Part shown: piece by piece, positions 19,009-60,850 of the stretch
Numbering within the stretch: position 1 is the first letter of the stretch
Layout: each line of letters begins with the position of its first letter
Program-made: the position numbers and the translations under genes
IMG/VR virus record: IMGVR_UViG_3300045988_079349
Reading direction: 5' to 3' (one strand)
DNA length: 62,911 nt
Origin: a virus
Notes under the pieces: generated by a model
What the model saw: the letters and a program-made list of their open reading frames with translations, nothing else
The model's database searches: none
What the model was told of the DNA's origin: nothing

Positions 19009-19040
19009 TTTGTAATAAGATTTGACAATCTAGTTTTTTT

Positions 19041-26338: not shown

Positions 26339-27028
26339 ATGGCTAAGAGTTCTAAAAGATTAGGTAATGCTACTTTTGTCCAATATGGATATGGTCAAGT
26401 AGAACCAAACCATCTTTCCGCTCCAAGAAATGGTCAGGTATATGCTCAGCTTCCTGCTGCTAGCACAATCACCCTTCTTGAGAATGGTCAATTCGTAAAG
26501 TATGACTATGCTAAGGGTGTATGTGATTTTAGCACAGAGGCTACTTCTGGTGCTTGGATGATGGTATTCAATGAGGTAAAAATTTATAGAGATCGTGAGA
26601 CTGATGCCGATTTTGCTATGATTAAAGATAACTATAACGCTCGTGTTTATAGCCCAATCGGACAGACCGTTTCTACACTCGCTACCATTAATGACTATAC
26701 TGGTGAAGCTGTACGTGAAGGTAGTAACGTAGCATATAAAAAGAATATGGAAACATTTACTTATCCAGCTTTGATGCCAGAAGGAACTAAAATGGTTCCA
26801 CGTGTAATTAAGATTAGTATTGGTGATATTTGGACAACTAATACTATTAAGGCTGATGCCGGTTCACTTGCTGTTGGAGATCGTTTAAAGATTGGTACTG
26901 ATGGTTATTTAACCGAGGATACTGAATCTTCTGCTAAGGGTGGAGATTTAGATCCTATCTTTACAGTAGTAAAAGTATACACCATGCCCGATCTTCAACC
27001 CGGTGTAAAAGTACAGCGTGTAGGTTAA
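26339..27028 (+). CDS. TAG-free structural protein (229 aa), possibly head decoration/auxiliary capsid protein
   Basis: ORF track; lies between the scaffold and capsid genes. Confidence 0.45.
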   Translation: MAKSSKRLGNATFVQYGYGQVEPNHLSAPRNGQVYAQLPAASTITLLENGQFVKYDYAKGVCDFSTEATSGAWMMVFNEVKIYRDRETDADFAMIKDNYNARVYSPIGQTVSTLATINDYTGEAVREGSNVAYKKNMETFTYPALMPEGTKMVPRVIKISIGDIWTTNTIKADAGSLAVGDRLKIGTDGYLTEDTESSAKGGDLDPIFTVVKVYTMPDLQPGVKVQRVG

Positions 27029-27047: not shown

Positions 27048-28100
27048 ATGTTAGATAAAGCTAATTTACTTAGTTTAATGAAGACTGTCGCCAATGCAAA
27101 TCCTTCTGGTACCTATAGCTATCAAGGAGAATCCTTTAGCTACGACGCTTTGAACACCACTTTGCGCAATGAGTTAAATGAGCTTGTTGGCACAGATGAA
27201 CTTTATAGAGAAAATAAACATACTCTATTCTCTTTAATTGAGCAAACTATGGATGAAGTTGTTCCTAATCGTTTACTCAATTCTTATGGCAATTTTGCCG
27301 AGATTAGAACTTTCGGACAGGGAGATAAACCTGTATTTACTCGTAGAACTGGACTTACCCGTGCTAAGCAATTCATCACTCGTGTGGGACTTGCTGGCGT
27401 ATACGAGACCTTTAAGCTCGGTTCTGAGAGCTTCGAAGTTGGTACAAGTGCTATCGGCGGAGCTGCTCGTATCGGATTCGAGGAGTTCCTCGACGGAAGA
27501 GTAAACTTCGCAGAACTTACTCAGATTGTAACTGAGGGTATGCAAGAGCTTATTTATAGAGAGATTGCTCAAGCTCTTATGGGTTCTATTAATCAGCTTC
27601 CCGCGGCAAACCGTTGTGCCGTTGCTGGTTTTGATGAAGCTACTATGGATTATCTTGTAAATACTGCTAGTGCTTATGGTCAGCCCACTATTTACTGTAC
27701 TCGTGAGTTTGCAGTAAAGATGATTCCAGACAACGAGGCTTGGATTTCTGATAACATGAGAGATCAGTATTGGGGAACTGGATACCTTGCTAACTACAAG
27801 GGAACTAGAGTGGTAATTCTACCTCAAACCCTTGAGGATGAGACTAACTCTAGAAAGATGATTGACCCTGGTTATGCTTGGGTTATCCCCGGTGGAGCAG
27901 ATACTCGTCCTGTTAAAGTTGCTTTTGAGGGTACTACTCACGTGCGCGAGCGCGATGATAACGACGACTGGTCTCGTGATATTCAGGTTTACCGCAAGGT
28001 CGGAGTTGGCGTAATGATGGCAAATAACATTTTCTCTTACGTTGATACTGAACTTCAAGGTGAGCTTGATAATACTAACCCAAATCCAAATAATGGTTAA
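27048..28100 (+). CDS. major capsid protein (putative HK97-fold), 350 aa, TAG-free
   Basis: ORF track; position after the scaffold gene; strong terminator immediately downstream. Confidence 0.6.
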   Translation: MLDKANLLSLMKTVANANPSGTYSYQGESFSYDALNTTLRNELNELVGTDELYRENKHTLFSLIEQTMDEVVPNRLLNSYGNFAEIRTFGQGDKPVFTRRTGLTRAKQFITRVGLAGVYETFKLGSESFEVGTSAIGGAARIGFEEFLDGRVNFAELTQIVTEGMQELIYREIAQALMGSINQLPAANRCAVAGFDEATMDYLVNTASAYGQPTIYCTREFAVKMIPDNEAWISDNMRDQYWGTGYLANYKGTRVVILPQTLEDETNSRKMIDPGYAWVIPGGADTRPVKVAFEGTTHVRERDDNDDWSRDIQVYRKVGVGVMMANNIFSYVDTELQGELDNTNPNPNNG

Positions 28101-28140: not shown

Positions 28141-28161
28141 TTGAGAAAAAGGAGATATAAT

Positions 28162-28698
28162 ATGAAAGATAAGTGTATTGTTTATAATAAAAGTGCGGGC
28201 CGCGCGGTATATAAACTGCCTGAGCTTGGTGTACGTCGTATGTTCTATCCAGGTGAGCATAAAGAGATTAGTGTATCTGAGCTTGAAAAGTTGGTTCAAA
28301 CACCCGGAGGCCGCAAGCTGATTTATAATTATCTATTAATTGATGATAAAGAAATTATTGAATATCTTATTAATGGGAAAGTTGAACCAGAATATTGGTT
28401 AAAAGAGAAAGATATTGATTCGTGGATGCAGTCATGCTCTTTGGATGAATTCAAGGATGCTCTTGATTTTGCCCCTGATGGGACAAAAGATTTGATTAAG
28501 GCTCACGCGGTTTCTCTTCCTTTGAATGATATTTCAAAGCGAGATGCGATAGAAAAACAATTAGGTTTTAACGTTACTAAAGCGTTGGAATTAACCGCGG
28601 ACGAAGGAAAAAATTCTAAAAATGAGGTTAAGCCTGTTAGAAGAGCATCGGTTGCAAGTGATGATACTCCAAAGCGTAGAGTAACTATATCCGAGTAA
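28162..28698 (+). CDS. hypothetical protein (178 aa from the internal ATG), TAG-free
   Basis: Track ORF 28141..28698; AAAAAGGAGATATAAT RBS before MKDKCIVYNK. Confidence 0.5.
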   Translation: MKDKCIVYNKSAGRAVYKLPELGVRRMFYPGEHKEISVSELEKLVQTPGGRKLIYNYLLIDDKEIIEYLINGKVEPEYWLKEKDIDSWMQSCSLDEFKDALDFAPDGTKDLIKAHAVSLPLNDISKRDAIEKQLGFNVTKALELTADEGKNSKNEVKPVRRASVASDDTPKRRVTISE

Positions 28699-31842: not shown

Positions 31843-33237
31843 ATGCGTTTTGGTATTCGTGAGATTTGCGATGTAGTGCTTCGTGCGAAGAGTTATCAAA
31901 CCCTTGGTAATCGTAAGTTCTACAAAAATGAACCAGTTTTATATTTCGACACTTTAAGAACCTCTACTCTTGAGGGTGCTGCAACAACAGTATATGCGCA
32001 GGGCGGACGTGGATATTCTAGATTGATTGCTTGGGAAGGTGAGCGTACTCTAACCTTTACAATGGAAGATGCTCTACTTTCTCCAGAAAGCTTCTCTATT
32101 CTTTCTGGTGCTGGCCTACTTGATGCAACAAAAGAAGCTCCTATCTATGTTCACCAGACTTCTCAGATTGAAGTTGAGACTGCCAATACTATTATTGTTC
32201 CAGACAAGGCTTGCTGGAATGGATTTACTGACCATGATAATGAAATGTATCACCGTTCTGCCGACATCTTTGTGATGGTGTTAGGCGATGATGGTCAAGT
32301 TAATGCCGAGCCTTGTATTCCTGTTTCTGTAAGTTACACAGAAGATGGCAAAACAACTTTAACTTGTTATTCTCATGCTGGCGTACTTCCTGCGGGAACC
32401 ATTGTTTTAGTTGACTACTATGTAAAGCGTACCGGTGGAGCACAGATGATTGAAATTACTGCTGATAAGTTTGGTGGTAACTATTATCTTGAGGCTTCAA
32501 CTCTATTCCGTCGTGAGAGCGATGGCGTAGATATGCCTGCTGAATTTATTATTCCTAACTGTAAAGTTCAGAGTAACTTCACATTCAGTATGGCAGCTAA
32601 CGGAGATCCTTCTACCTTTACCTTTACAATGGACGCTTTCCCTGATTACACCAAGTTCGACCAAACCCATAAGGTATTGGCTGCAATTCAAGTAATCACT
32701 GATGAAAGCGGTGAAACCGAGGAAACTCGTGAGCCATGCTCTGAGAATGTAGGTACTTATGAGAGCGAAGCTGCTGATGTGACTGTAAGTTTCGTATCTA
32801 ATAGTGCTACAGCCGCAGAGCTTGATGTTACTGGTAGTGTAACAGGAAAGGCTTATGACACTGAGACTTATGGCGATACTATAGCAGAAGCTGCTCAGAT
32901 CAGCCTGCAAATCCCAGTAGAGAGTGATAGTACCCAATATAATGTGGTAACTACAAACCCAGCTTATGAGAGATACTTCTCTACAGACCCAGGAATTGAA
33001 GGTAATACAAAGACTCAAACCGTTAGCGGCGAAGAGTTAGCTCAAGGATTGCTTGTAATTCTTACTAGCGAAGATCAGGCAACTCCTATTACCGCAAAGA
33101 TTAATAAGATTAATGGTGATTTTGAAAAGACTTATACCATTAATAACAAACTTAGCTTTGCTACATCTGCCGCAGCAAAAGCTAAGACTAGCACCCGCAA
33201 TAAGTTAGTCTCTGTCACCGAGGATGACGGAATTTAA
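31843..33237 (+). CDS. major tail (tube) protein with an Ig-like C-terminal extension (464 aa), TAG-free
   Basis: ORF track; AAGGAGG RBS; lies upstream of the chaperone and tape measure genes; strong terminator after it. Confidence 0.5.
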   Translation: MRFGIREICDVVLRAKSYQTLGNRKFYKNEPVLYFDTLRTSTLEGAATTVYAQGGRGYSRLIAWEGERTLTFTMEDALLSPESFSILSGAGLLDATKEAPIYVHQTSQIEVETANTIIVPDKACWNGFTDHDNEMYHRSADIFVMVLGDDGQVNAEPCIPVSVSYTEDGKTTLTCYSHAGVLPAGTIVLVDYYVKRTGGAQMIEITADKFGGNYYLEASTLFRRESDGVDMPAEFIIPNCKVQSNFTFSMAANGDPSTFTFTMDAFPDYTKFDQTHKVLAAIQVITDESGETEETREPCSENVGTYESEAADVTVSFVSNSATAAELDVTGSVTGKAYDTETYGDTIAEAAQISLQIPVESDSTQYNVVTTNPAYERYFSTDPGIEGNTKTQTVSGEELAQGLLVILTSEDQATPITAKINKINGDFEKTYTINNKLSFATSAAAKAKTSTRNKLVSVTEDDGI

Positions 33238-33239
33238 TC

Positions 33240-33276
33240 TAAAGGGAGGACTTAATGTCCTCCCTTTTTCTTTTTA
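33240..33276 (+). terminator. intrinsic terminator
   Basis: AAGGGAGGACttaaTGTCCTCCCTT followed by TTTCTTTTT. Confidence 0.6.
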
Positions 33277-33293: not shown

Positions 33294-34730
33294 TATGGAT
33301 ATTGATATTTATGATTATGTTTAGCGTTGGTCTATTAACTATATTGTATATCACAGTAGCCATTTGAGAGAATATGGCGACGTAGAATCAGCGAATACCT
33401 TATTCAGCGCATAGTATCAATAGGCAGTAAATAAAGCATAGACCGCGGGAATTGAGGCTTAGATCTCCTCAATTCAAGAATAGATGCAGCTAAAAGCGCC
33501 TTCCGCAGCCAGTGGATTAAAGATTCTAAGTGATCTAGAGATAGGAACCCTATTAGACTCTACTCTTGATTAGATTGCCGCCGGTATTAATGAGGGTATT
33601 GAATTAGCTGGTGGATAGGTAGATTTTGAAAACTATAATACTATATTGCAATAGGTTGGAAGCTTTAATAACTTGTTATCAACTGGTACACCGGAAATAT
33701 AGAGAGTGAATGATTTCTTTAGGTTACTTATATCAGCTTTAACGAAAGCGAATATGATAAATGTTAATGTTCTTGATGCTTTAACATAGATTGGAAGATA
33801 GCTAATAGGAACTAGCTTTTAGATAGATTAGGCATAGCAAAGTTATGTTATGGCTGTTGGCAAAGGAGATATAAATATCGCAAAAGATGTAATAGATTCT
33901 TTAAACAGGGCTGTTACTCGTTTAAGTGAATAGGGATCAGTAAACTCTCGTTCTTTTGCTAATACTATTGCTTATATATTTAGAAGGGTTATTGGAAATT
34001 AGATTAGTTAGGCGATAGTTGCAGAGGGTATATCAATAGGAGTTAATACCGCGGATAGTATATTAGATAAGGTAATCGCGCAATCTGGTGGAAAATTGCG
34101 ATGGGTTGATAAAGGATAGAATAATGTCTCTAAGTCTAAAGGTACTACAAATATATTTAATAATGATACCTTTAGTTTGCAAGTAACCAAGGGCAATCAG
34201 ACTTTTAATATAGAGATAGGGACAAATGTAAATGCAAGATGGCAAAATAAGAAAATGTCTTAGAATAAAATTTCTGCTTCTTCAAGTATGAATGTTGGAG
34301 AATATTTTTCTGGTTAGCCAGAGAAGTATCTTGCTTATAATATGATTGCTCATAGATATACTGGAGCTGATTTTGAAGAATCGTTTAATAATATACGGGC
34401 TTCTGTTGCAGCGTCCTTCTTTAATTAGTGGATTCAGTCTAGTGAGTTTAGTTCATAGAAGGGTCATTTAGGATAGTTTATTATAGTTAATGGTAGAGTA
34501 TTTTCAATCTAGCGAATTATTAATAATATCTGTGATGATATTGTTAGAAATAGTGCTCATGAAGTGGTTTCTATTGGTGGAGAAGGCGCTCTGGGTAATA
34601 AGTGGTATGGCAATTCTGGAGCAAACATATTAGATGCAATCACCCGTAGTAATATAGTCAATGGAGTTATAAATAAATTAACTATTGCAGCAACTTTAAA
34701 TAATAATATACTATCTAAATACGCATATTA
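33294..34730 (+). CDS. hypothetical Gln-rich protein (~478 aa) with about 40 in-frame TAG codons
   Basis: Single frame from ATG to TAA with TAG as the only internal stop; lies between the tube and chaperone genes. Confidence 0.45.
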
Positions 34731-34794
34731 AACTTGACAATAGTTAATTTTTCTAGTATAATAAAAATATAAATGAGATAAAGGAGATTTTACA

Positions 34795-35325
34795 ATGACT
34801 TTTAAAGATTTGGGGCTTGAGCCTAAAGTTAAATATACAGAAGTAAAGGTTGGAGCAGATAAGATTTTGTCTGTGGCTAATTATCTTCCTATTGCTGATA
34901 AAACAAATCTTATTATGTTTGTCACTGATTTATCAATAGATGAGGCAACTGGCTGTTTTAGTCCAGTTAGAGTGGAGACCTATTTTGCTATTGCTATATG
35001 CAGATGGTATGGCGGAATTACTTTTGAGCCAGAAGATGTGCATGAAAATATCGCAAAAACCTATGACACTCTTGAGACAAACAGTGTAATTGATGCAATT
35101 CGTGATATTATTCCGGTGGAGGAACTATCTTTTATTGAGGATTTAGTTAAGGATACTATAAGCGATATTTCAAGATATAATAGTTCTGCGGCCGGCATTA
35201 TTCAGATGATGAATAAAAATGCTTCTGGTCTTGATACATATATTACTGATATGCTAGAAAAGATTAAGAATGGTGAAAATCTTGAAACACTATCAGTAAT
35301 TAAAGATGTGGTTGGAAAAGATTAA
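34795..35325 (+). CDS. tail assembly chaperone candidate (176 aa), TAG-free
   Basis: ORF track; immediately precedes the tape measure gene; terminator-like hairpin at about 35375-35410. Confidence 0.4.
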   Translation: MTFKDLGLEPKVKYTEVKVGADKILSVANYLPIADKTNLIMFVTDLSIDEATGCFSPVRVETYFAIAICRWYGGITFEPEDVHENIAKTYDTLETNSVIDAIRDIIPVEELSFIEDLVKDTISDISRYNSSAAGIIQMMNKNASGLDTYITDMLEKIKNGENLETLSVIKDVVGKD

Positions 35326-35435
35326 TAAATCTAATAAAATTTACAAATTAGATAGAGAATTAAAAGGCTCTTGAGAAGATATAATTCTCAAGAGCCTTAT
35401 TTGTTTTATCGTAGAGATAAAGGAGGAAAAGGACT

Positions 35436-38400
35436 GTGGCTAATAAAAGATTAAACTATTAGATTGGGTTTACCGCTGATACTACTGAACTTTATAGAGC
35501 AGTAAATGATGCCGTTAAAGCATTAAATAGTATTGGTTCAGGCCAAAAATCTTTTTTAGGTTTAGATAGTGCTACTCAATAGGCAAGAGAACTTTAGACA
35601 ATTTTAACCTCTGCTTTTAATGAAAATACTGGGAAATTAGATCTAACTACATTTGCTAAAAGTTTAGAGAGAAGTGGAAAAAGTTTAAATGACTATGGAC
35701 GTAGCTTAACAAGTATTGGTCCAGCAGGATAGGAAGCTTTTTCATAGGTAGTTAAAGCTATATCTTCTGCTGAACTTCCATTAGTAAGAACGAGTAAATT
35801 ATTCGATCAGCTATGGATAACAATGAAAAATACTGTTCGTTGGCAAGTTACCTCAACTGCTTTAAATAGTTTTGTTGGTACTCTTGAAACCGCCTATGGT
35901 TATGCAAAAGATTTAAATGAATCTTTAACAAACATTCGTATAGTTACTGAAAATTCTGCGGAAGATATGGCTCTATTCGCGGAATAGGCAAATAAAGCTG
36001 CTAAAGCATTAAGTACAACTACTGTAGACTATACTGATGCAGCTCTAATTTATTATCAATAGGGTCTTACTGAGTAGGAAGTTTTAGATAGAACTGAAAC
36101 TACTATAAAAATGGCGAACGCCGCAGGTGTTAGTGCCTAGACTGCATCTGATCAGTTAACTGCGGTATGGAATAACTTTTATGATGGAAGTAAAAGTCTT
36201 GAGTATTATGCAGATGTCATGGTTCGCTTAGGTGCGGATACTGCATCAAGCTCTGATGAAATTTCAGAAGGTATCTAGCAGTTCGCCGCAGTTGCAGAGA
36301 CAGTAGGTTTGAGTTATGAGTATGCAGCATCTGCATTAGCAACTGTTACTGCTACAACTCGTGAATCTGCGAATACTGTAGGTACTGCATTTAGAACATT
36401 ATTTGCACGTATTCAGGGCTTAAATCTTGGCGAAACACTTGATGATGGAACTACTTTAAATAAATACTCTTAGGCTCTTGATAAAGTTGGAATTAACATC
36501 TTTGATGTTAATGGAGAAATTAAAACCATGGATACTCTATTAGATGAAATGGGAGAGAAATGGGAAACTTTATCTAATGATCAATAGATTGCATTAGCAT
36601 AGACTGTAGCTGGAGTACGTCAATATACCCGCCTTATTGCTCTCATGGATAACTGGGATTTCTTCTAGGAAAATCTAGAGAGTGCGTATGGCGCTAGTGG
36701 TTCTTTACAGGAGCAGGCTGATATTTATGCTGAATCTTGGGAAGCAGCTAGAGATAGAGTAAGAGCATCTGCGGAAGATATTTATGATAGTATTATAAAT
36801 CCTGAATTATTTATAAGTGCTGATAACATAGCTTCTCCATTCTTATCTGGAATTGCAGATATTGTTGATGGAATGGGTGGATTAAATGGTATTTTATTAA
36901 CCACTGGTACATTAATCACTTCAGTTTATGGGGATAAGATTGCCAATTCAATGAGAAATATGGCAACAAATATTAGTATTATTACTGGAGTAGAAGCTGA
37001 ACGAGCTAGAGTATTATAGTCTAATGCTGTTGATATATTGAAAAATTTAGAATCTACTTATGCCGCAGGCGACGCAGAAGCATATAGATTAAATATTATG
37101 TATCGTTAGGCAGAAGTGTAGGGGGCTATTAATTCAAAATATGATTCGATGACTATTGAGCAGAGGAAATAGTTATAGTCACAATAGCAGTAGTTAGATA
37201 TACTTAGAGATGAAAATTTAATTATTGCTGACACTATAGGAAAACTATAGCAATCAGCTACGGAAAAATTTGGTTCAATTTTCATTAATATCCCTCAAGG
37301 CTCAGAAGGTTGGCAGGATCAGTTAAAAGCAGAAATAGATTAGTGGAACAAAAAAGCTAAAAAGACATATCGGATCAATTTAGAAATTAATCCTGACACA
37401 ACTGTTGAAACTGTTTTTAGTAATATTTCTAAATAGCTTGATTCATTAGCAAAAAAACATGCTAGTTTACGACTTATTTCTAATTAGTTTTAGAATTTAG
37501 ACGCTACAAGTGAGAAGTATGAATAGAATTTAAAAGAATTAATTGCTACCTACTCTAATTTAGGTACTTCAAATAAGACGGTCTAGGAGATGGAGTCTTA
37601 TTTAAAACGTCTTGGAACCCAAGCAGATAATACAGAAAGTCAAATTAAAGAATTGGGTAATGTCCTTTCTTAGCTTGGAGTAAATAAAAATAATATAAAT
37701 TCTTATATTGATACTTTGATGAATTTGCATTTATAGCTGCAAAGAGGAGAAATTACTTAGGAAGCATATAACAATGCTGTTTAGCGAGTTGTAACTAATA
37801 TTAATAACCTTAATTCTTCTTCTAAAGATTGGGCTAGTGGAATAGTATAGGCTGGAAATGCTATATCATCTCTTTTAATGGCGGTTAATGGCATCAATAG
37901 TATTGGTAGGGTTTTTTCCGATGAGGATATGACCTCTGGAGAAAGATTTATTACAATTCTAACTGGATTAAGTATGATTATTCCATCTGTTACTTCCGCT
38001 ATGAAATTCCTTAATCAAGAAAAAGCGATTTCTGTAGCGGTTACAGGAACAGAAGTTACTGTAACTGGAAGTAGTATAGCTGCAAATTTAGCTAGAACCG
38101 CTGCAAATAAAATTTTAGCAGTTTCTGAGGGAGAAGTGGCTACTGCGACTTAGGTAAGTAATGCAGCTATGGCAGCAAGATTGATTATGTTAGCTCCATA
38201 TGTAGCACTTATTGCAGCATTAGTAGGTGGAATCTACTTAGCAGTAAAAGCATACAATGCTGACGCGGACGCTGCGAAGCGAGCTGCCGAAGCTGCGGAA
38301 GAGACGCAACAGGCTGTAGAAGATGCTACTTCAGCGTATGAGGAATTAAAATAGACTATTTCGGATTATAGCGAAGCCCTTGATAGCATTAATGAGCTAG

Positions 38401-41400
38401 AAAAAGGAACAGAAGAATTTGCAGAATAGATAGAAGACGCTAACAAAAAAGCTAAAGAATTAATTGAAACATATAAATTGTTTGGGCAATATAGTTATGG
38501 TTCAAACGGATAGATAGTATTTGATGAAGGAGTACTAGAGAATCTTTAGGAGCAATAGGCTAGTAATCTTAGTTCATTAGAAAGCGCCAATTATTAGACA
38601 TAGATAACTGCGTCTAATGCAAATTTGAAAGCTTTGGCTACTAGTACGATTAGAGAAACTGGACTAACCTATGGTTACTCTTATCAAGATCGTTCTGGAA
38701 ACGAGTAGGAGATGCAGCGTCTCATTTCTCATGATATGTTAGATGAATTAGCTAATAATTATTATGAGTTAATGAGCGAGGCTTCTGACGGATTTGTAAC
38801 TCTTGAGAGTGGAATTTAGCTTTCTGTCGACGCAGTTGCAGATGCGAAGGATGCATTAGAGGAATATGCCGATGCCGCAAAATCGGCGGCAGAAGAAACA
38901 GAATACTTTGCTAGCTAGATTTTAACTAATTATGTTGGACAAAATTATGAAGGTACAATAGATAGCAATGAAGATTTAATTCGATAGGCTGCAAGTAATC
39001 AAGTAGGTAATACTCAACTTTCTTCTGGAAAAACTGTAGATGAAGCATTGGCAGAAATTAATGCTGCAAATGCCAATAATGCTACTATTAAAGATTTGCT
39101 AAGAGAACTATATAATACGGATTATATGTTCTTAACCGATGAAAGATTGGGTAAGGAATACGCGGAAAAAGTTCTTGGATGGGATACTGCCTCTATTGGT
39201 TATTCTGGAGGATGGGGAAAAGGAACTCTTTCAAATGCCGCTACTGGCGAATCTGTAGAAATGACAGACTAGGCTATGCGCATTGCTTTATAGAATCTAC
39301 TTATGTAGGAGAAAATTTTAAAGCAGTATGCAGACGAAATAGAAAATAATGCTGAAGGAGCTATTGATATAGATTCTTACATTTAGGAGTTAAATGAAGA
39401 TATTAATAATATCAATACTCAATTTGGAGAGGAATTTGGTACAGCATATGCTCAAGCCTTAGCAAATGAAGGAGATATAGATTTTGTTAATTTATTAGAA
39501 CAATCTTTTTCTCCTGAATAGGTAGAAGAGCTAAAAACTAAGGTTAGTTCTGGATTGTTAGATATTCCTTAGGAGTTTCTTGATGCTTTAACTTCTTCAA
39601 TAGAAGATTATGACGCCAGTAATTATTGGGCTAATTAGCTTGAGACAAGTAAGAAAAATGCGGCAGAAATTGGTAGTATCCTTTCTTCTTACCAAAATGA
39701 AGAGGAATTAGATGAGGATTAGCTAGCCTTCTTAGATGAATTGATGGCTAAATATGAAGATTTATCTAATTTACAAGCCACAAATTAGCATGACTATCTT
39801 GAAAGATTAAGAGAGATACAAGAACAAGAAGAAAAAACGTATCTTACTGGATTAGAGGATTCTGCTAATTAGCAAAGAGAGGATATTTAGCAATTAGAAT
39901 CAGAAATAGCAAGATTAGAAGATGCTGGATATGCTCCACTAGATTTAATAGAGGAATTACAATAGAAATTATAGAAGCTTGCAGACACAGAGTATAAAAT
40001 TTAGATTGCTCTCGATACGGATTTAGCTTCTGATATTGATTAGGCATTCGGGTTAGCCAATGAAATAGAATAGCTTAAAGGATATTTGGAAGATGGCCTT
40101 GAAATAACATATGATAGAGCCTAGGAAATAATAGCGGCTGGCTATGGCGCTATGCTTACTAATGCAAGAGAAACGGCAGATAGTACTATTGAGTTAAATA
40201 GAGAAGTTGTTAATAATTTTATTGATGGTAAATAGTAGGAAATAGAAGCTGATAGATTAGCAAGAATAAAGTAGTTAGAAACTGAGAGAGAAGCATTAGT
40301 CGCTAAGCGAGATTCTCTTTATGCTGGATTAGAAGCTTTAAAATCTGGGCTTAAAGCAGAGGATGCGGCCTCTAAAGCTGCGGCACTTGCACAAGCAGCT
40401 ATTTATAAAGCTGATGCCGATTCAAAAGAAATTACAGCTGAAAAAAAGGCTGACGCAGAAGATTTAGCCAATGAAGAAATTGCTAATGATGCCGCCGCTT
40501 TAGTCGATGCTTTGGGAATAATGCATGAAACTGATGCAGAAAATTCTCAATAGGCGTATGATGATATTGAAACTGCGGCGAATCAAAGTGGAGCATCATA
40601 GGTTAGCGTTTGGAATTAGGTTTAGTTAGCAGCAGTTAAAGCATCGTAGGCAATAAAAGCTGCTTATAGCGGGCAGGAAAGTACTTATGATCCCGTGCTA
40701 TTTGAAGGACAGGATAATGTCTCCGTGGGGGCGACCAGTTCACAAACTGCTGATAATACATATGTATTTTCTAAAGCAGATGTTTAGACATTAACTGATG
40801 AAATCCTTAATGCCGCTTAGAATAATATCGAAGTATTAAATAGCGCTACAGAGCAAGCTATTGATGAAATATAGTTAGAATTGAATTCTGTTAATGCTTA
40901 GATCGGTTCTGTAGATGCTGGAATTGCGGCACTAAAAAGCGCTAATTTATCTTTAGATAAAACATAGGCTAACTTAGGTAGTGGTTCTGGCGGAGATAAC
41001 GAAGGTACAAAATATGATGCCGAGGATGAAAAAACTCTTGAAGATATAGAAGATAGATACCATGAAATAACTCGTGAGATTGAGAATTAGAATGATTTAT
41101 TGGATGATATTGGTAATAATATAGATAGAGCATATGGAGCGAAGAAATTATAGGCTTATTAGAAAGAGCTTCAAGAGTTAGAAAAACAGCAAGCTAATTA
41201 TAATAAGATGCTTGATGAGGCTGAGACTTATCTTGAGAAAGATAGATCAGAACTTCAAGGATTATTTAACAATTCTCTTATTTTTGATGAAAATGGAGAA
41301 ATTGAAGGTTATCAAGACGTTCTTCAATCTATTATTGATGATTACAATAATAACTTCTTAACCGATTATAATGCTTTCTTATTGATGTTTAGTAGTCTTA

Positions 41401-44234
41401 CTAAAGATGAATAGGAAGCTAGATAGGCGGAATATGATAGTTGGCAATTACAAAAAGAAGTTGCTGATGAATTATTCTAGGCTCGTTAGGACGCTTTAGC
41501 TCAATATGAAGAAACTCTCGATAAGATTCAAGATGTAAAAGATGAGCAAGAAGAGCTAGAAAGAAATATTGCAGATAATAGATTAAATTAGATTGAATAT
41601 AAACTTGAAGTTGCGATAGATATAAAAGATGCTAAAGATGCGGTTAATGAGCTAACAAGACAAATAGCAGAATCTTTTGGTGATGAGCTAACTCATGGAA
41701 TGGAAGTCGCTCGTATTGATAAAAACAGTATGAACGAGAACATTGAAATCATCAAGAGCTATGAAGAAGCCCTTAAAAGTTATCAGGAAGAATTAGCTAA
41801 TGCCACAGATGCGACTAATATTGATGAGATTGTAAGTAAGTTATCTGACTTACAAGGTAAAATGATTTCTACCGCAGAGGCTTTGCTTGATTGGGTAGAA
41901 GGTCTTGAAGAAATGCTACCAGATGCATTAGATGCCGCGTCAGAAAGATTTGCTGCTTTTACTGATTAGCTTGATCATAATGAATCTGTTCTAGGGCTCA
42001 TCAAAGAATTATATGCTCTTTAGGGAGTTACATATAAGACCGAAGAAGGATTTGAATAGCTTCAAGAAGTAAGCGAAGAAACTATGAAGGCTTAGGTCGC
42101 CAATGCATAGCTGAATAAACAATGGTATGACGGAATCCGTCAAGAACTATTGGAAGCTCAAGCTGCATTAGATGCATTAGGCGGAGATGAAACCGATCCT
42201 GCATATGATGGTTTAAAAGCTAATAGAGATGCTCTACTAGAAGAATTTAATGAAGCACAAGAGGCTATGTTAAGTTCCGCGCAAGCTGCTATGGAGACTG
42301 CTTAGGAGATGTATACTCAAGCTATTGAAAGAGCAGTATATGAATTTGGATAGGCTGTTTCTGGTGGAGTAGGATTAGATCTACTACAAGACAAATTCGA
42401 TCATTATATCGAACAAGAGGATAGATATTTAGATAAAGTAAATGAGGCGTATGAGGTATCTTCTTGGTATAATAAACTACAACAAGATATTGATAAAGCT
42501 ACTAACTCTAAGATGAAAGATTAGTTAAAGTAGCTGCAAGAGGAAATTGATATACGTAGAGAGAATAATACCTTATCTGAGTACGATTTAGAAATTCTCG
42601 AAGCTAAGTATAATGTTCTTTAGGCTTAGATGGCACTTGAAGATGCTCAAAATGCAAAGAATCAACTTAGATTAGTAAGAGATAGTCAAGGTAACTGGAA
42701 TTATCAATACACCGCAGATGCGAGCTAGATAGCAGATGCAGAGCAGAATTTACTTGATGCGGAGAACGAATGGTATAATATAGCAAAGCAACAGGTAGAG
42801 GATGTTACAGGAGAGATTATTTCTACTTGGCAAGAGTGTCAAGATAAGATAAAAGAAATCTATTCTGATATGACCTTGACTGATGAAGAAAGATCTGCTC
42901 GCGCGCAAGAAATTTATTCTTATTATACGCAGAAGGTTAAGGACTTAGAGAGCGAAAAACAGATCGCTATTTAGGATATGACCGAAGCCGGCAATAAAGC
43001 CTTAATTGATATGGCTATTGTTGCGGGAGATGAGGTAAGTGACTTAACTGGAATTACAAGTCAAGAAATTCAAGATATTATAGCTAATTCCGGCTCTAGC
43101 ATTATTGATTTGTTGCTATCAGATAATGAGTAGATTCAAGATATAGTAGGAAGTAATACAAAACTTATTGACCTATTTGATAACGTATTTGCGAAAGACT
43201 TAGCGAATATGACCGCTAATGCCGGCAACTTTGAAGAGTTTTTATCTAATGCAATGGATGAAGCTAGCGGAGCGATGGAGGATTATCAAACTACTGTTTC
43301 TGGAGTAGCCGATTAGACTGGAACAAGTCTTGATGATTTAAAAGATTATATCGACGATGTTTCAACTTCTACTGATTTGTGTTCTGAGGCTGGATCAAAA
43401 GCTGTTACTTAGATGTTAGAATAGATAAGCACTATTCAAGATTTAAGTCAAGAGTATTTAGATATGGCCGATTCAGTCAGAGAATATGTAAGATCACTTG
43501 AAGAAGCCGCTAGAGCTGCTGGTAACACAATAGAAAGCGCAGGAAGTATAGATAAAGATGACTTGCCTTCTTCTGATTCAAGTCAATCTTCTGATACTGA
43601 TAAAGGTAGCTCAGGCGATAGTGGTAGTGGATCTTCCAGTAGTGGAACTGGAGGAGGTAATGGAATCCCCGAAGTAGGAGATGAAGTTATTTATACTGGT
43701 GGAACTTACTATCATGATTCTTATGGCACTGATCCTGCTGGTAGACGCGGTCCAGGTAAAAAGGTTAGAATAACAAACATAGCTAAGGGTAGACCTTATC
43801 CAATCCATGTACAGTCCAATAATTCCGCTTATGGATGGCTAAAAGAAAGTTAGATAAGTGGCTTCGATACTGGAGGATATACTGGAGAATTTGATAATGC
43901 TAAATTAGCTTTCTTACATGAAAAAGAGTTAGTTTTAAATCAAGAGGATACGAAAAATATCTTGGCGGCGGTCTCTGCTATGAGAGCCTTTGGACCTAGT
44001 TTTATAGCCTCTATTGAGAAAACTCTTGACGGGAACGCACTATCTATTTCTAGTATTATGGCATCTAGATTGGGAACTAATACCTAGATTGCGCCGACAG
44101 ATAATGTGGTTTAGCCAAATATAAATATTGAGCGAGTTGAATTCCCCAATGCGACATCTTCTGATGAAATTCAAGATGCTATTCGTAGTTTGGCGGATGA
44201 TGCTACTCAATGGGCGAATAGAAGAAAAGAATAA
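35436..44234 (+). CDS. tail tape measure protein, ~2,932 aa, with roughly 100 in-frame TAG codons
   Basis: AAAGGAGG RBS then GTG. One frame stays open to a TAA when TAG is read as sense. It joins the track ORFs 37878..38153, 38169..38354, 39048..39272, 41208..41414, 41700..41969 and 43464..43853, all in the same phase. Long Ala/Glu-rich coiled coils, a hydrophobic segment (38169..38354) and a C-terminal SH3-like domain. Confidence 0.8.
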
Positions 44235-44285
44235 TAGGGGAGATTTTCTCCCCTATTATTCCCTATGAGTAAAAGGAGGAAGAAT

Positions 44286-47200
44286 ATGAATACAGCTTCT
44301 GAATCTATTTTTTAGACAATAGATATTCTTGTTGATAAAGCACTATCAAAATTAACTTATGATAAAACTGTTTCAGCAGAGATCAATAGTATCGTTAATC
44401 TTGATACTGGAGAATATAAAGTTAAATATTCTGGTAATATAGTATCTGCTTTTTCTGATGATGTAAAAAAGCAATATAAAGTAGGAGATACTGTATACGT
44501 TACCATACCTCAAGATGACTTGTCAGCAAGGAAAAGAATAGTATGTAAAACAAGTGAATAGTCGCTATCATACGGAGAGATGCTATCTTTATCTAATTCA
44601 ATAATAGAGAAAAGCCCAACCTTTGATACCATGTATGAATATGATAAAAACGCGGAAAGGAGCGTTGTAGCTGGAGCGCCTGCCGATAGTGATCTAAGTC
44701 AATAGATTATTTATGATGGTATTGAAGAGGGTTATCATGGATTATTCCAACAATACGCAAACAATAATGAACTTATTAGAATCAAGGCTTCTTTCTTGAC
44801 CACCTTCCACTGTGAGCATACAAAAGGAAATTATGGTTTAGATATATAGTTTTTCACAAAAAGTGGAGATATAGTTTCTTACAAACTAGATCTAAGCTCT
44901 TTTAATGGAGATCCATATCGCTTTTAGGTCTATAGCCCGCAATCTGTAGTCATAAAAACTCAAAAGAATTATTTAACTGGACTTAAACAGATTAAATTAT
45001 TTGAAGAAAACTTTGTCTATGATCGTTATGTAGAATCTGGTGTAGTTACAGATAAAGAGAATAGAACTGTACCTAATATTTTTGTAAAGGATATAGAGAT
45101 TCAGTTTGTTGAATAGAAAGATTTAACTGATAATTTATATTACTTAGATATATCAACCCCGCGAGGAAACTCATTCACTAACGAGATCTCTTCTCTTGAT
45201 TTGGTTGGTAGATTGATTTATTAGGGCGATAATATTATGGACGAAGAAACCTGTGAATGTAAATGGTTTGAGAGGGATGTAAGCGTTTTACTAGGGAGCG
45301 ATTTGTATGACAAAAATGCTGGGGTAGGATGGGCTCCCGTCACAGCGTCCGAGAGCAATACGCTGACACTTAATGCTGAATAGGTTGAGTATCAAAAGTA
45401 GTATAAATTGATCGTTGTATATAATGATAGCGTGACATTAAGCGCAGAAACAACGATTTATAACTTAACAAGTGACTATAGTTTTGAGTTAGATCAAACT
45501 ACGGTTGGTGAAGATATTATCATTCAAATTTAGAACAATGTAGATGATACTGTTTTAATTGGAGATTGGTATATGCTTTATCCAGATGGAAGTTATACCG
45601 CAGTAGGGTTAAAACAAAATTCTATCACTGTAACTAATTTACTGCTATATTCTTCTGTTACTTTTGTTTGCGGCGTTTATAATAAAGAGTATAGCTAGAT
45701 TATTTGTGTATTAGAACATCTTGTCACAAATAGTTCTTCCGAGGAAGATGTTACAATCACTTATAATGGAGAAGATACCTTTAGATATGATGCAAACGGA
45801 GATATAACAATAGAAGATGCTGAGAAGGAACGAACTCTTTAGGTTGTTTTAACTTGGAAAGATGGAGTTGGAACTTCTTATAAGGTTGAATGGATTGGCC
45901 CAGATGGGAAAAATATCACTAATTCAAGATATAATCCTAGTGAATCTATGATAGAAAATCTTTGGGTTGACAATAGCAATATTTTACATTATACTATTAA
46001 ATAGAAGTATAAAGTTAATTTTAATAATAATACTATCTTAGTTCGTATAGTTACTATGGATGAATAGAGATACTCTTTCTAGAAAGAGATTTTATTCTTA
46101 AAAGATGGAGATTAGGGTACTAATGGTACGACCTATGTTACTGCAATTCGTCCTTTTGATGAAAGTACCGGCCTAAAACTTTCTGGTTTGGTTCCCCTTA
46201 TCTATAGAGATGACTCATGGCAAAATACTTTACCTTTAAGATGTTATGTATATAAAGATGGAGAGCTAATTAACGACAATGGAAGCTATACATTAACCTA
46301 TAAGTGGACAGGGGTTAATGTTAATATTAGGGATAGTGCCTTGGATGACCGCAAGATAATTAGTGGAGATAATCAACTAGTGTCTACTCCTATTGGTGGT
46401 TATGTGAAGGTATAGGTTACTATTAATGATAATAAGAATAATAGAACTTATGATATTTATAGTAATTATCCTATTGATGTCGCTGTTGATTTTTCTGATC
46501 AAGAAATAGAGAGTATTGATATTAGCTCTATTCCTTCTTATATTAAATATACTGCTTCTGGAGTAAATCCCTAGTTCTATAGTAATAATATTGAATTTAT
46601 TGTCAACAAAGTTGATTAGAGCAAGAATATTACTTCTATTGTAGAAGAAATATTAACAATAGAAGAATAGGATGGTCTTTACTATTTAGAACCGGCTTCT
46701 AGCTTTATTTTTGAAGATAATAGTATTGCATTGTTAAAGTGTGAATATGAGGGAAAATGTATTTATCATCCAATTATCTTGTATCTTGACACCTATGGAA
46801 ATGAATTAATTAATGGGTGGGATGGTACATAGCTTGAAATTGATGAAGAAAATGGTCAGTATATTTTGGCACCATAGATAGGCGCAGGAGAAAAAGATAG
46901 CTTTAATCGTTTTACTGGTGTAGTAATGGGGAAAGATAGTGTCTAGTCTAAAATTGGTTTGTATGGATATAAAGCAGGAGTTAATACCTTTGGTCTAATG
47001 GAAGATGGTACAGCCTTCTTTGGATCCAAAACTGGTGGTGGGTAGATTATTATTGATGGTACCTCTGCCGAAATTTATGGAGGAGGAAATTCTTCTGGTG
47101 AAGGTGGAGACGCATCCAATGGAATGACTATTACACTAGCAGATCTTAAAGCTGATGGCTCTACAGAGGCTATTAAAATCGGTGGCGGTGTTTTCACAGT

Positions 47201-48206
47201 AAAGTATAATGGTACTGTAAATGCGGCCAATGCTGAAATTTCAGGAACTATTTATGCTTCTTCCGGCAAGATAGGTGGTACAAAAACTGGGTCTAATGGT
47301 TGGACTATTGAAACCAATAGACTGTATAGCGGTTCTGGTTCAACAAGAGTCGAATTGAATAGCCAGTCGCCTACTAATACATCTACACCTACAAATAATA
47401 ATGATTTTGCTATGTGGGCTGGTAGTGCAACTGCTTCAAGCGCTAAGTTTTCTGTCTCTAAAGGTGGATTAATTACTGCTAAATAGGGAAATATTGGAGG
47501 ATGGATTCTTTCTTCTAATAAACTTACTAGCGATAATTACAGAACCGGTATAGCAAGTTCAGGAACTTATCGTTTCTGGGCTGGAGCTAGTTCTAGCAGC
47601 ACAGCAGATAGACCTGTTTTCTCTGGTTCTTCTTATTTTTATGTTACCAGTTCAGGTGAGATGTAGTGTAAAAATGCAACGATTAATGGCTCTATTTATG
47701 CAGACGATGGCGAAATCGGCGGGTGGACTATTAGTCCAAGTAGAATCTCTGGAGGCGGAACCACTCTATATTCAAATGGTAGGATTGTATGTGAGGATTT
47801 TGAATCTGATAACGTAGATATTAGTGGAGATATTAATGCGACTACTTTAACCTGTGATAATGGCGAAATCGGCGGGTGGACTATTAGTGAAGATGGATTA
47901 GAGAATGGTACTACAAGATTGTTTAACGGCTTAGTATAGACAGAATAGGTACAAATATATTATAATGATCATGGTCGCTGGAATACTTATCTTGGATTTT
48001 TAGGATATGTACCAGGTAGAGATGATGATGGTGTTACTGACAATATTGGTATTAGGACACTTGATTAGGGATAGAGTATTATTCTTTAGTCTGCAAGAAA
48101 TATAGCTTTAAATGCTGAGGGAGCAGGTATCTGGGTAAATGCAGAAAATTTCAACATGAATGTACCAAAATCTGGATAGAAAGGTATTTATGCCTAGTTT
48201 GCATAA
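44286..48206 (+). CDS. large tail protein (~1,306 aa; distal tail/tail-associated protein with repeated GEIGGWTIS-type motifs), about 60 TAGs
   Basis: In frame with track 46188..46415 and 47124..47486; repeats KIGGTKTGSNGWTIE, GEIGGWTISPS, GEIGGWTISED. Confidence 0.55.
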
Positions 48207-57517: not shown

Positions 57518-57976
57518 TTATTCCTCGCAAGGAGGTCTACTGTATAAGTGATAATGCGGTTTTTCTTCTCCAAACCATTTCCATCTAAGGTAATCATCTA
57601 ACACTATTGCTAAAAGGCTCAAGAAGAACCATGCAATAGAGAAGGGCAAGCAAATCTGCCCCATAAAGTTAAGTGGAATGTTAGAATAATCCCAAATACC
57701 TAAACCTAGTCTTATATTTAAAACTAATCCAAAAATTAATTCTAAAGCAGTTATAATTAAAGATCCTTTTACTCCTTGAGTTAAGATAGATTCTTCCCAA
57801 AGAATATTCTCATTCATTAGTCCAATTAATAGAAAGCATAAGCCACCTAGCAAAAACATAGACCAATGACAAACTCCAAGGCTAATAAAAGTTTTATAGA
57901 GGAACTCTATACTGTAATATAGAGTTCCTCCTACTACGAATAGAATTATATTTTTATTCGCTGTCTGTGTCTTCAT
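57518..57976 (-). CDS. integral membrane protein (4 predicted TM helices), TAG-free
   Basis: ORF track. Confidence 0.55.
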   Translation of the reverse strand: MKTQTANKNIILFVVGGTLYYSIEFLYKTFISLGVCHWSMFLLGGLCFLLIGLMNENILWEESILTQGVKGSLIITALELIFGLVLNIRLGLGIWDYSNIPLNFMGQICLPFSIAWFFLSLLAIVLDDYLRWKWFGEEKPHYHLYSRPPCEE

Positions 57977-58616: not shown

Positions 58617-58768
58617 TACTTTATTTCAACTCCTTTGAATAATGAACGAAAATAATTGTCCATGTCCTGAATTATATAAAAGCAAGTTCCTTTAGAAATA
58701 TGCGCCCTCCAGCCCTAATAAGATTTCTAAACTTCTTCAGTTGAAATTTTATTATCTAACCATAAAGC

Positions 58769-60769: not shown

Positions 60770-60850
60770 TTAAAATCTCCCTCACTTGAATATATAAAAT
60801 TTTAGTTGGACAATTTAATCTTAACTGTCCCGAATTGTTATTTTATTGTG

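What the first reader, a model, noticed from the sequence alone, without database searches (positions are those of the whole stretch)
35436..44234. Exceptionally long (about 2.9k aa) tape measure protein encoded with roughly 100 TAG codons
A continuous 8.8-kb frame runs from an RBS and GTG to a TAA. It has coiled-coil and hydrophobic tape-measure character and a C-terminal SH3-like domain. It follows the tube and chaperone genes. By the usual rule of about 0.15 nm per residue this implies a tail several hundred nm long. The very high TAG load makes this protein especially dependent on suppression efficiency.
Basis: partly seen in the sequence, partly recalled or inferred. Interest (0 to 1): 0.55.

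Follow-up and report, generated by a model that had tools for sequence, protein, structure and literature searches.

The report
Recoded giant phage tape measure gene
This is one real 8.8-kb phage gene for a 2,932-residue tail "ruler" protein in which 103 TAG stop codons are read as glutamine; it is a new member of an already described group of gut phages, not a new kind of thing.

Summary
Window 35436-44234 (+) is one frame: RBS, GTG, 2,932 sense codons, TAA. It has 103 in-frame TAG and no TAA/TGA; by chance P is about 1e-77. It is a TP901-family tail tape measure protein (PF10145, TIGR01760). It has two hydrophobic segments, about 1,750 residues of proline-poor amphipathic helix, a Ser/Gly linker, an SH3b/GW-like beta-domain and a conserved C-terminal module. 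TAG = Gln is supported by homologue columns and by TAG/CAA/CAG interchange. Ten IMG/VR relatives, an NCBI MAG contig, Phass-1 and standard-code Enterococcus phages all carry one collinear gene of 2,673-3,150 codons. The interpretation therefore holds, with three corrections. First, the length is large but has precedent: phAss-1 group 3,149-3,209 aa (published 2023), Tsamsa 3,123 aa with a 440 nm tail, P23-45 5,002 aa. Second, TAG is not enriched: it is 51% of Gln codons here and 52% in the other late genes. Third, the "chaperone" is unverified. Full-length yield is r^103, so per-codon decoding must be at least about 0.98, which implies near-complete reassignment. Predicted tail: about 410-440 nm. 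Verdict: new member of a known kind, modest interest.

The parts
35421..35426 (+). Ribosome-binding site AGGAGG, 9 nt upstream of the GTG start. An in-frame TAA at 35418-35420 closes the frame just before it.
   Evidence: Read directly from the sequence.
35436..44234 (+). Tape measure protein gene: GTG start, 2,932 sense codons including 103 TAG (= Gln), TAA stop. Predicted product about 320 kDa.
35874..36782 (+). TP901-family tape measure core domain (aa 147-449; PF10145 matches aa 186-393). 93-97% identical to the closest relatives.
37947..38261 (+). Region with two hydrophobic, transmembrane-like segments (aa 838-856 and 909-942).
   Evidence: Kyte-Doolittle, 19-residue window, maxima 1.67 and 2.17.
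38271..43535 (+). Long acidic, proline-poor (0.3% Pro) amphipathic-helical ruler region (aa 946-2700). No Pfam domain, PDB homologue or internal repeat. Its first half belongs to the divergent cassette aa 451-1900 (nt 36786-41135).
43536..43670 (+). Ser/Gly-rich linker (aa 2701-2745; 22% Gly).
   Evidence: composition; sequence.
43671..43865 (+). SH3b/GW-like five-strand beta-domain (aa 2746-2810), probably a cell-wall-binding module.
43866..44231 (+). Conserved C-terminal module (aa 2811-2932) with the invariant motif D-T-G-G-Y-T-G ... L-H-x-K-E-x-V-L-N. By analogy with other siphoviruses, this is the end that sits at the tail tip.
   Evidence: invariant columns in 61 sequences. (matches the C-terminus of the Enterococcus phage tape measure protein).
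31843..33237 (+). Tail tube protein gene (464 aa, TAG-free), followed by a terminator-like hairpin at 33241-33267.
   Evidence: phrog_2729, E 4e-56. (the 463-aa protein at the same position in relative L004 carries Pfam PF27173 YomU_Tube)..
33295..34731 (+). Unassigned 478-aa gene with one of the highest TAG densities in the block (25 TAG, 5.2% of codons).
   Evidence: Conserved in L004 (480 aa, 19 TAG).
34795..35325 (+). TAG-free 176-aa gene in the position of a tail assembly chaperone (phrog_30570, function unknown). No frameshift extension. Preceded by a 12/12 sigma-70 consensus at 34734-34762.
35364..35398 (+). Terminator-like hairpin (14-bp stem, T-run) 38 nt upstream of the tape measure start.
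   Evidence: sequence.
44265..48206 (+). Downstream 1,313-aa tail protein gene (33 TAG). Collinear with the gene that follows the tape measure gene in Phass-1.
   Evidence: tblastn E 1.6e-50 to Phass-1 14718-17372.

Best explanation
The frame is a single late gene of an uncultivated siphovirus of about 130 kb. The phage has an SPbeta-like virion module and is distantly related to the phAss-1 group and to the ~140-kb Enterococcus phages; it probably infects a Gram-positive gut Firmicute. The phage reads TAG as glutamine (code 15).

The product is a TP901-family tape measure protein. By analogy with studied siphoviruses (inferred, not shown here), a few copies, probably a trimer, span the tail lumen as extended helices. 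They nucleate tube polymerisation and set tail length at about 0.14-0.15 nm per residue, which here gives about 410-440 nm. The hydrophobic segments and the C-terminal SH3b/GW-like module would act at the cell envelope when the protein is expelled at infection.

Early minus-strand genes avoid TAG, so they read the same under both codes. The tape measure gene carries TAG from codon 9 onward, so it can only be made after a phage suppressor tRNA(CUA) is active; that tRNA is encoded outside this window. Full-length yield is r^103, so TAG must be decoded almost as efficiently as an ordinary sense codon.
For: Shown here:
- One frame, non-random.
- Family membership.
- TAG = Gln. Homologues carry Q in 40% of cells at TAG columns against 4% background, and three TAG columns are nearly invariant Q: 120/120, 103/120 and 98/120. 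TAG interchanges mainly with TAG, CAA and CAG in relatives.
- One gene. A standard-code 2,673-aa tape measure gene in Enterococcus phage VRE9_3 matches aa 39-483 and 1859-2930 inside one annotated CDS, in a syntenic module. Intact code-15 frames of 2,899-3,150 codons occur in 12 relatives.
- Ruler signature. The closest relatives are 84-100% identical over aa 146-450 and 1901-2932, but only 18-35% over aa 451-1900. Total length still stays within 1%.
- Helical and hydrophobic anatomy.
- SH3b/GW-like domain.
- TAG depleted in the early block: CTA observed/expected 0.50 on the + strand.
- Yield arithmetic.

From the literature:
- The phAss-1 group has tape measure proteins of 3,149-3,209 aa with TAG->Gln and tRNA-Sup(CTA) (PMC10607447). 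The Phass-1 record annotates two tRNA-Sup-CTA genes at 62445-62610.
- Tsamsa: 3,123 aa and a 440 nm tail (PMC3903500).
- The staged code-switch model (bioRxiv 10.1101/2021.08.26.457843).
Against: - No suppressor tRNA, release factor or tRNA synthetase is in the window, so the decoding machinery is inferred from relatives.
- No particle, proteome or EM data exist for this phage. The tail length, copy number and helical-in-lumen arrangement are extrapolations.
- The middle 1,450 residues have no detectable homologue outside close relatives, and I could not model their structure.
- One close relative (L004) has two in-frame TAA codons.
- The chaperone frameshift signature usual for siphoviruses is absent.
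Confidence: 0.9

Rival explanations
1. The frame is really two or more adjacent or fused genes (for example an N-terminal core protein plus a separate C-terminal protein). They would be joined only because TAG is counted as sense or because of assembly error.
For: Relative L004 is called as 569 + 2,163 aa, with two in-frame TAA codons near the position equivalent to residue 626. The divergent middle cassette shows that the gene is recombinationally modular.
Against: The window has no TAA/TGA in 2,932 codons. Twelve other relatives are uninterrupted. The standard-code Enterococcus gene is one CDS that matches both ends. The L004 stops lie in an 84-nt patch that replaces 61 nt found in four intact relatives, and its reverse complement reads open. 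It sits in a 3.6x coverage contig. Under code 15, TAG cannot separate genes.
Confidence: 0.03
2. TAG is not glutamine here. It encodes another amino acid (such as pyrrolysine, Trp, Tyr or Leu), or the gene is a decaying pseudogene littered with stops.
For: No tRNA in the window fixes the identity. At several TAG columns the homologues prefer E, K, N or A.
Against: Q is the commonest residue at TAG columns (40% against 4% background). Three TAG columns are 82-100% Q. TAG alternates with CAA/CAG in relatives. TAG plus CAA/CAG gives a plausible 6.9% Gln. A pseudogene would also accumulate TAA/TGA and frameshifts, and none is present (P about 1e-77). The published relatives carry Gln-type tRNA-Sup(CTA).
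Confidence: 0.02
3. The TAG load is a dedicated regulatory device for this protein. The tape measure gene would be specifically enriched in TAG so that it acts as the suppression-dependent checkpoint or timer for tail assembly.
For: The first TAG is at codon 9, and yield falls as r^103. The gene holds 33% of the TAGs in the late block. The abundant virion proteins are TAG-free while this low-copy nucleator is not. A terminator-like hairpin lies just upstream.
Against: TAG share of Gln codons is 51% here and 52% in the other late genes. Its density (3.5%) is exceeded by two smaller genes at 5.2% and 5.6%. The TAGs are uniformly spread, not positioned. Relative L005 keeps a 3,099-codon gene with only 16 TAG, and the Enterococcus homologue has none, so the load is not needed for function. 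The count is what length times Gln content predicts.
Confidence: 0.15
4. The divergent middle third (aa 451-1900) is not only a spacer. It would carry an unrecognised activity, as in Thermus phage P23-45, whose tape measure protein contains an RNA polymerase.
For: No family or structure matches this region, so nothing excludes it. Precedent: PMC10770324.
Against: The composition is that of extended helix: 51% helix formers and 0.3% Pro over aa 946-2700, with widespread 3.5-3.6-residue periodicity. Close relatives replace the region with unrelated sequence of the same length. That pattern fits a length constraint and not a conserved fold or active site.
Confidence: 0.05

Closest known systems
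Tape measure proteins of phAss-1, BK046881_ctckW2 and BK025033_ct6IQ4 (proposed Phassvirus; Babkin et al. 2023, PMC10607447)
   Same: Human-gut siphovirus-type genomes of about 133-136 kb using TAG->Gln. One tape measure ORF of 3,149-3,209 aa; I counted 3,150 codons and 110 TAG in Phass-1. Same PF10145 core. Collinear head, tube, tape measure and tail genes. Capsid and tube genes TAG-free.
   Different: Only 23% identical overall and 37% in the core domain. No DNA-level similarity. The window's protein is about 220 residues shorter. This is a different, more distant lineage of the wider group.
Tape measure protein of Enterococcus phages VRE9_1-4, H1, EF1 and EF5 (~134-142 kb; phrog_34405)
   Same: One CDS of 2,673 aa that matches both the N-terminal core and the C-terminal 1,070 residues. 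Same gene order: phrog_35301, 4088, 30998, 3853 ... 2729 (tube), 30570, tape measure.
   Different: Standard genetic code (no TAG). About 260 residues shorter. About 20% identity. Extra genes (phrog_32285, phrog_29801) lie between the phrog_30570 gene and the tape measure gene.
Uncultivated IMG/VR and ENA relatives (e.g. IMGVR_UViG_3300045988_075249, 132.9 kb; ERZ1310332 NODE_1180)
   Same: Code-15 frames of 2,899-2,916 codons with about 100-113 TAG. 84-100% identity over aa 146-450 and 1901-2932.
   Different: Residues 451-1900 are replaced by sequence only 18-35% identical. None of these contigs is annotated or described.
Bacillus phage SPbeta / phi3T YomI and the SPbeta virion module
   Same: The core domain matches (tblastn E about 2e-14). 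Neighbouring genes of relatives carry SPbeta-derived Pfam families (YonD_N, YonB, YomW, YomV, YomU_Tube, YomO).
   Different: From my own knowledge, YomI is about 2,285 aa and carries lytic transglycosylase and peptidase domains; the records hit annotate it as 'lytic transglycosylase'. No catalytic domain is detectable here, only an SH3b/GW-like binding module. SPbeta uses the standard code.
Giant tape measure proteins of cultured siphoviruses: Bacillus phage Tsamsa (3,123 aa, 440 nm tail) and Thermus phage P23-45 (5,002 aa, ~800 nm tail)
   Same: They show that tape measure proteins of this size and larger exist and scale with tail length at about 0.14-0.16 nm per residue.
   Different: Standard code and unrelated lineages. 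The P23-45 protein contains an RNA polymerase domain.

Membership tests
TP901-family phage tail tape measure protein (Pfam PF10145 PhageMin_Tail / NCBIfam TIGR01760) | Core domain scoring above the curated thresholds | tested here: met
   PF10145: 101.1 bits (cut-off 33.2), full profile 1-201. TIGR01760: 135.6 bits (cut-off 28.8).
TP901-family phage tail tape measure protein (Pfam PF10145 PhageMin_Tail / NCBIfam TIGR01760) | Located in the tail module, downstream of the tube gene and upstream of distal tail genes | tested here: met
   The tube gene (phrog_2729; YomU_Tube on the L004 homologue) lies two genes upstream. The downstream 1,313-aa gene is collinear with the post-tape-measure gene of Phass-1.
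TP901-family phage tail tape measure protein (Pfam PF10145 PhageMin_Tail / NCBIfam TIGR01760) | Preceded by tail assembly chaperone genes with a programmed frameshift (G/GT type) | tested here: not met
   No extension ORF in either alternative frame, and no suitably placed slippery site. The upstream gene is phrog_30570 of unknown function. This feature is usual for siphoviruses but does not define the protein family.
TP901-family phage tail tape measure protein (Pfam PF10145 PhageMin_Tail / NCBIfam TIGR01760) | Predominantly alpha-helical, proline-poor, with internal hydrophobic segments | tested here: met
   48 of 82 windows show helix periodicity at p<=0.05. Pro is 0.8% overall. Hydrophobic segments at aa 838-856 and 909-942.
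TP901-family phage tail tape measure protein (Pfam PF10145 PhageMin_Tail / NCBIfam TIGR01760) | Protein length determines tail length | not testable with these tools
   Indirect support only: length is conserved within 1% although about 1,450 residues are replaced. EM or deletion mutants are needed.
Stop-codon-recoded (code 15, TAG->Gln) phage with staged code switch (Borges et al.) | In-frame TAG in conserved genes, with coding density restored only when TAG is sense | tested here: met
   Coverage 32% rising to 91%; 309 TAG in 27 late genes.
Stop-codon-recoded (code 15, TAG->Gln) phage with staged code switch (Borges et al.) | TAG positions correspond to Gln in homologues | tested here: met
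Stop-codon-recoded (code 15, TAG->Gln) phage with staged code switch (Borges et al.) | Phage-encoded suppressor tRNA(CUA) | tested here: inconclusive
   None in the 62.9-kb window or in the structural regions of 10 relatives' loci. Present in Phass-1, in the minus-strand replication block. The window covers only about half of a genome of about 130 kb.
Stop-codon-recoded (code 15, TAG->Gln) phage with staged code switch (Borges et al.) | Early genes compatible with the standard code, late genes recoded | tested here: met
   In the minus-strand block at 4-17 kb, TAG on the coding strand has observed/expected 0.50 and nearly all ORFs end in TAA or TGA. The late plus-strand block is recoded, apart from five abundant-protein genes.
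Proposed genus Phassvirus (phAss-1 and two relatives) | High nucleotide identity (>80%) and shared synteny with phAss-1 | tested here: not met
   No megablast match for 25 kb of the window. The tape measure proteins are 23% identical. The window belongs at most to the wider monophyletic group the authors describe, not to the genus.
Bacterial SH3b / GW cell-wall-binding domain | SH3-like five-strand barrel fold | tested here: met
Bacterial SH3b / GW cell-wall-binding domain | Sequence membership in a Pfam SH3b or GW family | tested here: not met
   Only PF13457 GW at 13.2 bits (cut-off 21), E 0.15. It resembles these domains in fold but cannot be filed as a member by sequence.
Bacterial SH3b / GW cell-wall-binding domain | Binds peptidoglycan or teichoic acid | not testable with these tools
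   Indirect: some homologues of the C-terminal module carry LysM, PG_binding_1 or CW_7 domains; whether these occupy the same position was not checked.

The most novel reading that the evidence does not exclude
TAG use in this phage is graded by how much of each protein is needed. The five genes for the most abundant virion or assembly proteins (capsid, its two neighbours, tube, and the small gene before the tape measure gene) contain 40 CAA/CAG and no TAG. Low-copy proteins such as the tape measure protein use TAG for about half of their glutamines. If so, suppressor-tRNA-limited decoding would be a built-in stoichiometry and timing device. Bulk building blocks could be made at full speed, even before the code switch is complete. 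The tail-length ruler, which nucleates tail assembly, would appear only once TAG is decoded at about 98% or better per codon. The 103-TAG gene would then be a natural, very sensitive reporter of how completely a phage can reassign a stop codon in a standard-code host.
Probability: 0.25. Interest if true: 0.5.

Novelty: new member of a known kind. Interest (0 to 1): 0.3.

Why it matters
There are three modest points.

1. Annotation. Under the standard code this gene breaks into fragments of at most 143 residues. The GenBank record of Phass-1 is annotated that way, and so is the NCBI MAG contig L005. Recognising code 15 is therefore needed to see the tail module at all.

2. Decoding efficiency. 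A run of 103 TAG codons in one essential protein puts a numerical floor on decoding. Per-codon decoding must be at least 0.978 for a 10% yield. That is far above classical amber suppression, so it argues that TAG termination is almost abolished late in infection.

3. Ruler logic. Conservation of length across a replaced ~1,450-residue cassette is clean comparative evidence for the ruler function in an uncultivated lineage. It predicts a siphovirus tail of about 410-440 nm in the gut.

None of this overturns current understanding.

Tried and rejected
- The full-length protein query to the 5.8-billion-protein search failed internally and cost one search. I used the N- and C-terminal pieces instead.
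- Megablast of the gene and of the head-to-tube block against the phage collection found nothing.
I substituted a periodicity test.
- A sequence search of PDB found nothing for the C-terminal part or the middle part.
- Literature searches for EM tail lengths of Enterococcus phages VRE9/EF1 and Enterocloster phage PMBT10 gave nothing usable. The J Gen Virol 2026 paper on homorepeats gave no benchmark either.
- No tandem or internal repeats, so the length does not come from recent duplication.
- No G/GT-type frameshift upstream.
- No tRNA in the window or in the relatives' structural loci.
- Considered and rejected: fused genes, pseudogene, a non-Gln reading of TAG, and specific TAG enrichment (see the rival explanations).

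Full report
OBSERVATION. The stretch 35436-44234 (+) is 8,799 nt, exactly 2,933 codons. It begins with GTG and ends with TAA. It contains 103 in-frame TAG and no other TAA or TGA. The frame is closed by a TAA five codons upstream of the GTG, and an AGGAGG lies 9 nt before the start, so the start assignment is unambiguous. From local base composition, the probability of 2,932 codons without TAA/TGA is about 10^-76.6. The other five frames of the same stretch hold 97-338 TAA+TGA each. Recoding applies to most of the window: ORFs of at least 100 aa cover 32% of it under the standard code and 91% when TAG is sense.

WHAT IT IS. With TAG read as Gln, the protein matches Pfam PhageMin_Tail over the whole profile (aa 186-393, E 9.6e-29). 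It also matches NCBIfam TIGR01760 tape_meas_TP901 (135.6 bits, cut-off 28.8) and eleven PHROG tape measure families, the best at E 9e-66. Several of those PHROG profiles are themselves 2,200-2,700 positions long.

ANATOMY, from N to C:
- A leader of about 145 residues.
- The TP901 core (aa 147-449).
- A helical stretch, then two hydrophobic transmembrane-like segments (aa 838-856 and 909-942).
- About 1,750 residues of acidic, proline-poor sequence (51% helix formers, 0.3% Pro).
- A Ser/Gly linker (aa 2701-2745).
- A small beta-domain (aa 2746-2810).
- A conserved C-terminal module (aa 2811-2932) with the invariant motif DTGGYTG...LHxKExVLN.
Hydrophobicity shows significant 3.5-3.6-residue periodicity in 48 of 82 windows along the protein, against 4 expected. 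The protein as a whole has 507 Asp+Glu against 228 Lys+Arg. It has no tandem or internal repeats. No further Pfam domain or PDB sequence relative was found.

TAG = GLN. I masked the TAG positions as X and aligned the first 560 residues with 120 database homologues. At the 16 masked columns, homologues have Q in 40% of cells against 4% at ordinary columns. Three of the columns are nearly invariant Q (120/120, 103/120, 98/120). At the codon level, the window's TAG columns in close relatives are mostly TAG, then CAA/CAG, then GAA. In the TAG-poor relative L005 the commonest class is CAA/CAG.

ONE GENE OR SEVERAL. Enterococcus phages VRE9_1-4, H1, EF1 and EF5 (134-142 kb, standard code) have a single annotated tape measure CDS. 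In VRE9_3 it is 8,022 nt (2,673 aa), and it matches residues 39-483 and 1859-2930 of the query, in a syntenic module. Under code 15, ten IMG/VR contigs of 96-146 kb carry uninterrupted frames of 2,899-2,988 codons with 81-113 TAG. An NCBI MAG contig has 3,099 codons with only 16 TAG, and Phass-1 has 3,150 codons with 110 TAG. The one exception is the ENA contig L004 (3.6x coverage), which has two in-frame TAA codons. They lie in an 84-nt patch that replaces 61 nt found in four intact relatives, and the reverse complement of that patch reads open. This is a local rearrangement or an assembly error, not a two-gene architecture.

RULER SIGNATURE. Against its four closest relatives, the window's protein is 93-97% identical over aa 146-450 and 84-100% over aa 1901-2932. 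Over aa 451-1900 it is only 18-35% identical, close to what unrelated helical sequence gives. Yet total lengths are 2,899-2,932. Replacement of about 1,450 residues with conservation of length is what a length-measuring spacer predicts. It argues against a hidden enzymatic domain there.

TAG LOAD. TAG makes up 3.5% of the gene's codons, against 2.1% in the rest of the late block. The reason is that the protein is Gln-rich (6.9%). TAG is 51% of TAG+CAA+CAG here and 52% (206 of 399) in the other 26 late genes, and two small genes have higher densities at 5.2% and 5.6%. The TAGs are uniformly spread, with the first at codon 9. So the count of 103 is length times composition, not special enrichment. 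Full-length yield is r^103: 1e-54 at r = 0.3, 0.5% at 0.95, 12.5% at 0.98 and 36% at 0.99. That implies near-complete reassignment and not leaky suppression. No tRNA, release factor or synthetase is in the window. In Phass-1 the tRNA-Sup-CTA genes lie in the minus-strand replication block (PMC10607447). In the window, the minus-strand block at 4-17 kb avoids TAG (observed/expected 0.50), which fits the published staged-switch model.

CONTEXT.
- The gene at 31843-33237 is the tube protein: phrog_2729, and its L004 counterpart carries YomU_Tube. It is followed by a terminator-like hairpin.
- Next comes an unassigned, very TAG-rich 478-aa gene.
- Then comes a TAG-free 176-aa gene (phrog_30570) in the chaperone position. 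It has a 12/12 sigma-70 consensus in front and a terminator-like hairpin behind, but no frameshift extension. The "chaperone" label is unverified.
- Relatives' neighbours carry SPbeta virion families (YonD_N, YonB, YomW, YomV, YomU, YomO). The phage is therefore an SPbeta-like siphovirus, probably of a Gram-positive Firmicute.

COMPARISON AND NOVELTY. Babkin et al. 2023 (PMC10607447) already described TAG->Gln phages from human gut with tape measure ORFs of 3,149-3,209 aa, and placed Enterococcus phage EF1 in the same wider group. Tsamsa has a 3,123-aa tape measure protein and a measured 440 nm tail. P23-45 has a 5,002-aa protein and a tail of about 800 nm. At 0.141-0.15 nm per residue the window's protein predicts about 410-440 nm. 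The window is not in the proposed genus Phassvirus: there is no DNA match, and the tape measure proteins are 23% identical. It is a new member of a known kind. Interest is modest (0.3). The points worth keeping are the efficiency bound, the conservation of length across a replaced cassette, and the TAG-free status of the abundant virion proteins.

Noticed in passing
window 57954-62656 (minus strand): RT 58616-59833; TR 60142-60243; VR 60865-60966; target gene 60851-62656: A complete diversity-generating retroelement. It has a reverse transcriptase (phrog_1423, E 7e-82) and a 102-nt template/variable repeat pair at 80% identity. All 20 mismatches are adenines in the template. The variable repeat lies at the C-terminus of a 601-aa Ig-repeat protein.
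   Followed up: yes
window 26339-27028, 27048-28100, 28141-28698, 31843-33237, 34795-35325: Five late genes are entirely TAG-free: the capsid-position gene phrog_4088, its two neighbours, the tube gene and the small gene before the tape measure gene. They hold 40 CAA/CAG and 0 TAG, while the other late genes use TAG for about half of their Gln codons. Under a 52% share, P is about 0.48^40, roughly 2e-13 (my arithmetic). The capsid and tube genes are also TAG-free in Phass-1. In L004 the tube gene has no TAG and the capsid gene has one. These stretches also have higher GC.
   Followed up: partly
window 36786-41135 (aa 451-1900 of the tape measure protein): This is a mosaic allele. The middle ~1,450 residues are only 18-35% identical to the four closest relatives, which are otherwise 84-100% identical over aa 146-450 and 1901-2932. 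Total length differs by at most 33 residues.
   Followed up: yes
window 33241-33267, 34734-34762, 35364-35398, 44226-44264: Terminator-like hairpins lie directly after the tube gene and directly before the tape measure gene. A perfect TTGACA-17-TATAAT lies in front of the TAG-free gene 34795-35325, which therefore looks like its own transcription unit. An 18-bp hairpin overlaps the tape measure stop codon.
   Followed up: no
L004 11690-11775 (ENA ERZ1310332 NODE_1180): An 84-nt AT-rich patch with two in-frame TAA codons replaces 61 nt found in intact relatives. Its reverse complement reads as an open frame, so it is a possible small inversion or misassembly at 3.6x coverage.
   Followed up: partly
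window 4000-17000 (mostly minus strand): This block has markedly higher GC (0.41-0.46 against about 0.33-0.36) and opposite GC skew. TAG is depleted on its coding strand (observed/expected 0.50). It includes an AbrB/antitoxin-like gene (9363-9842) and a phrog_20187 gene (6790-7614); a FolD-like gene lies just beyond it at 17063-17893. It is presumably the early, standard-code-compatible region.
   Followed up: partly
L005 9686-18985 (NCBI GCA_023665325.1, MAG labelled Acetobacter sp.): This relative has a 3,099-codon tape measure frame with only 16 TAG. With the TAG-free Enterococcus homologue and the relatives carrying 81-113 TAG, it shows graded recoding intensity within one lineage. The MAG's taxonomic label is probably a binning artefact.
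   Followed up: no
window 33295-34731: A 478-aa gene lies between the tube gene and the phrog_30570 gene. It has one of the highest TAG densities in the block (25 TAG, 5.2% of codons) and no Pfam or PHROG match. It is conserved in L004 (480 aa, 19 TAG).
   Followed up: no
window 18268-20126: A GIY-YIG homing endonuclease gene (18268-19008) and a sigma-factor-like gene with a C-terminal HNH/zinc-finger-like region (19041-20126) lie at the start of the late block, upstream of the terminase and portal genes.
   Followed up: no
homologues P0167, P0177, P0191, P0193, P0195, P0196: Some homologues of the conserved C-terminal tape measure module carry PG_binding_1, LysM or CW_7 domains. This suggests that an interchangeable peptidoglycan-binding domain lies near the tape measure C-terminus.
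   Followed up: no
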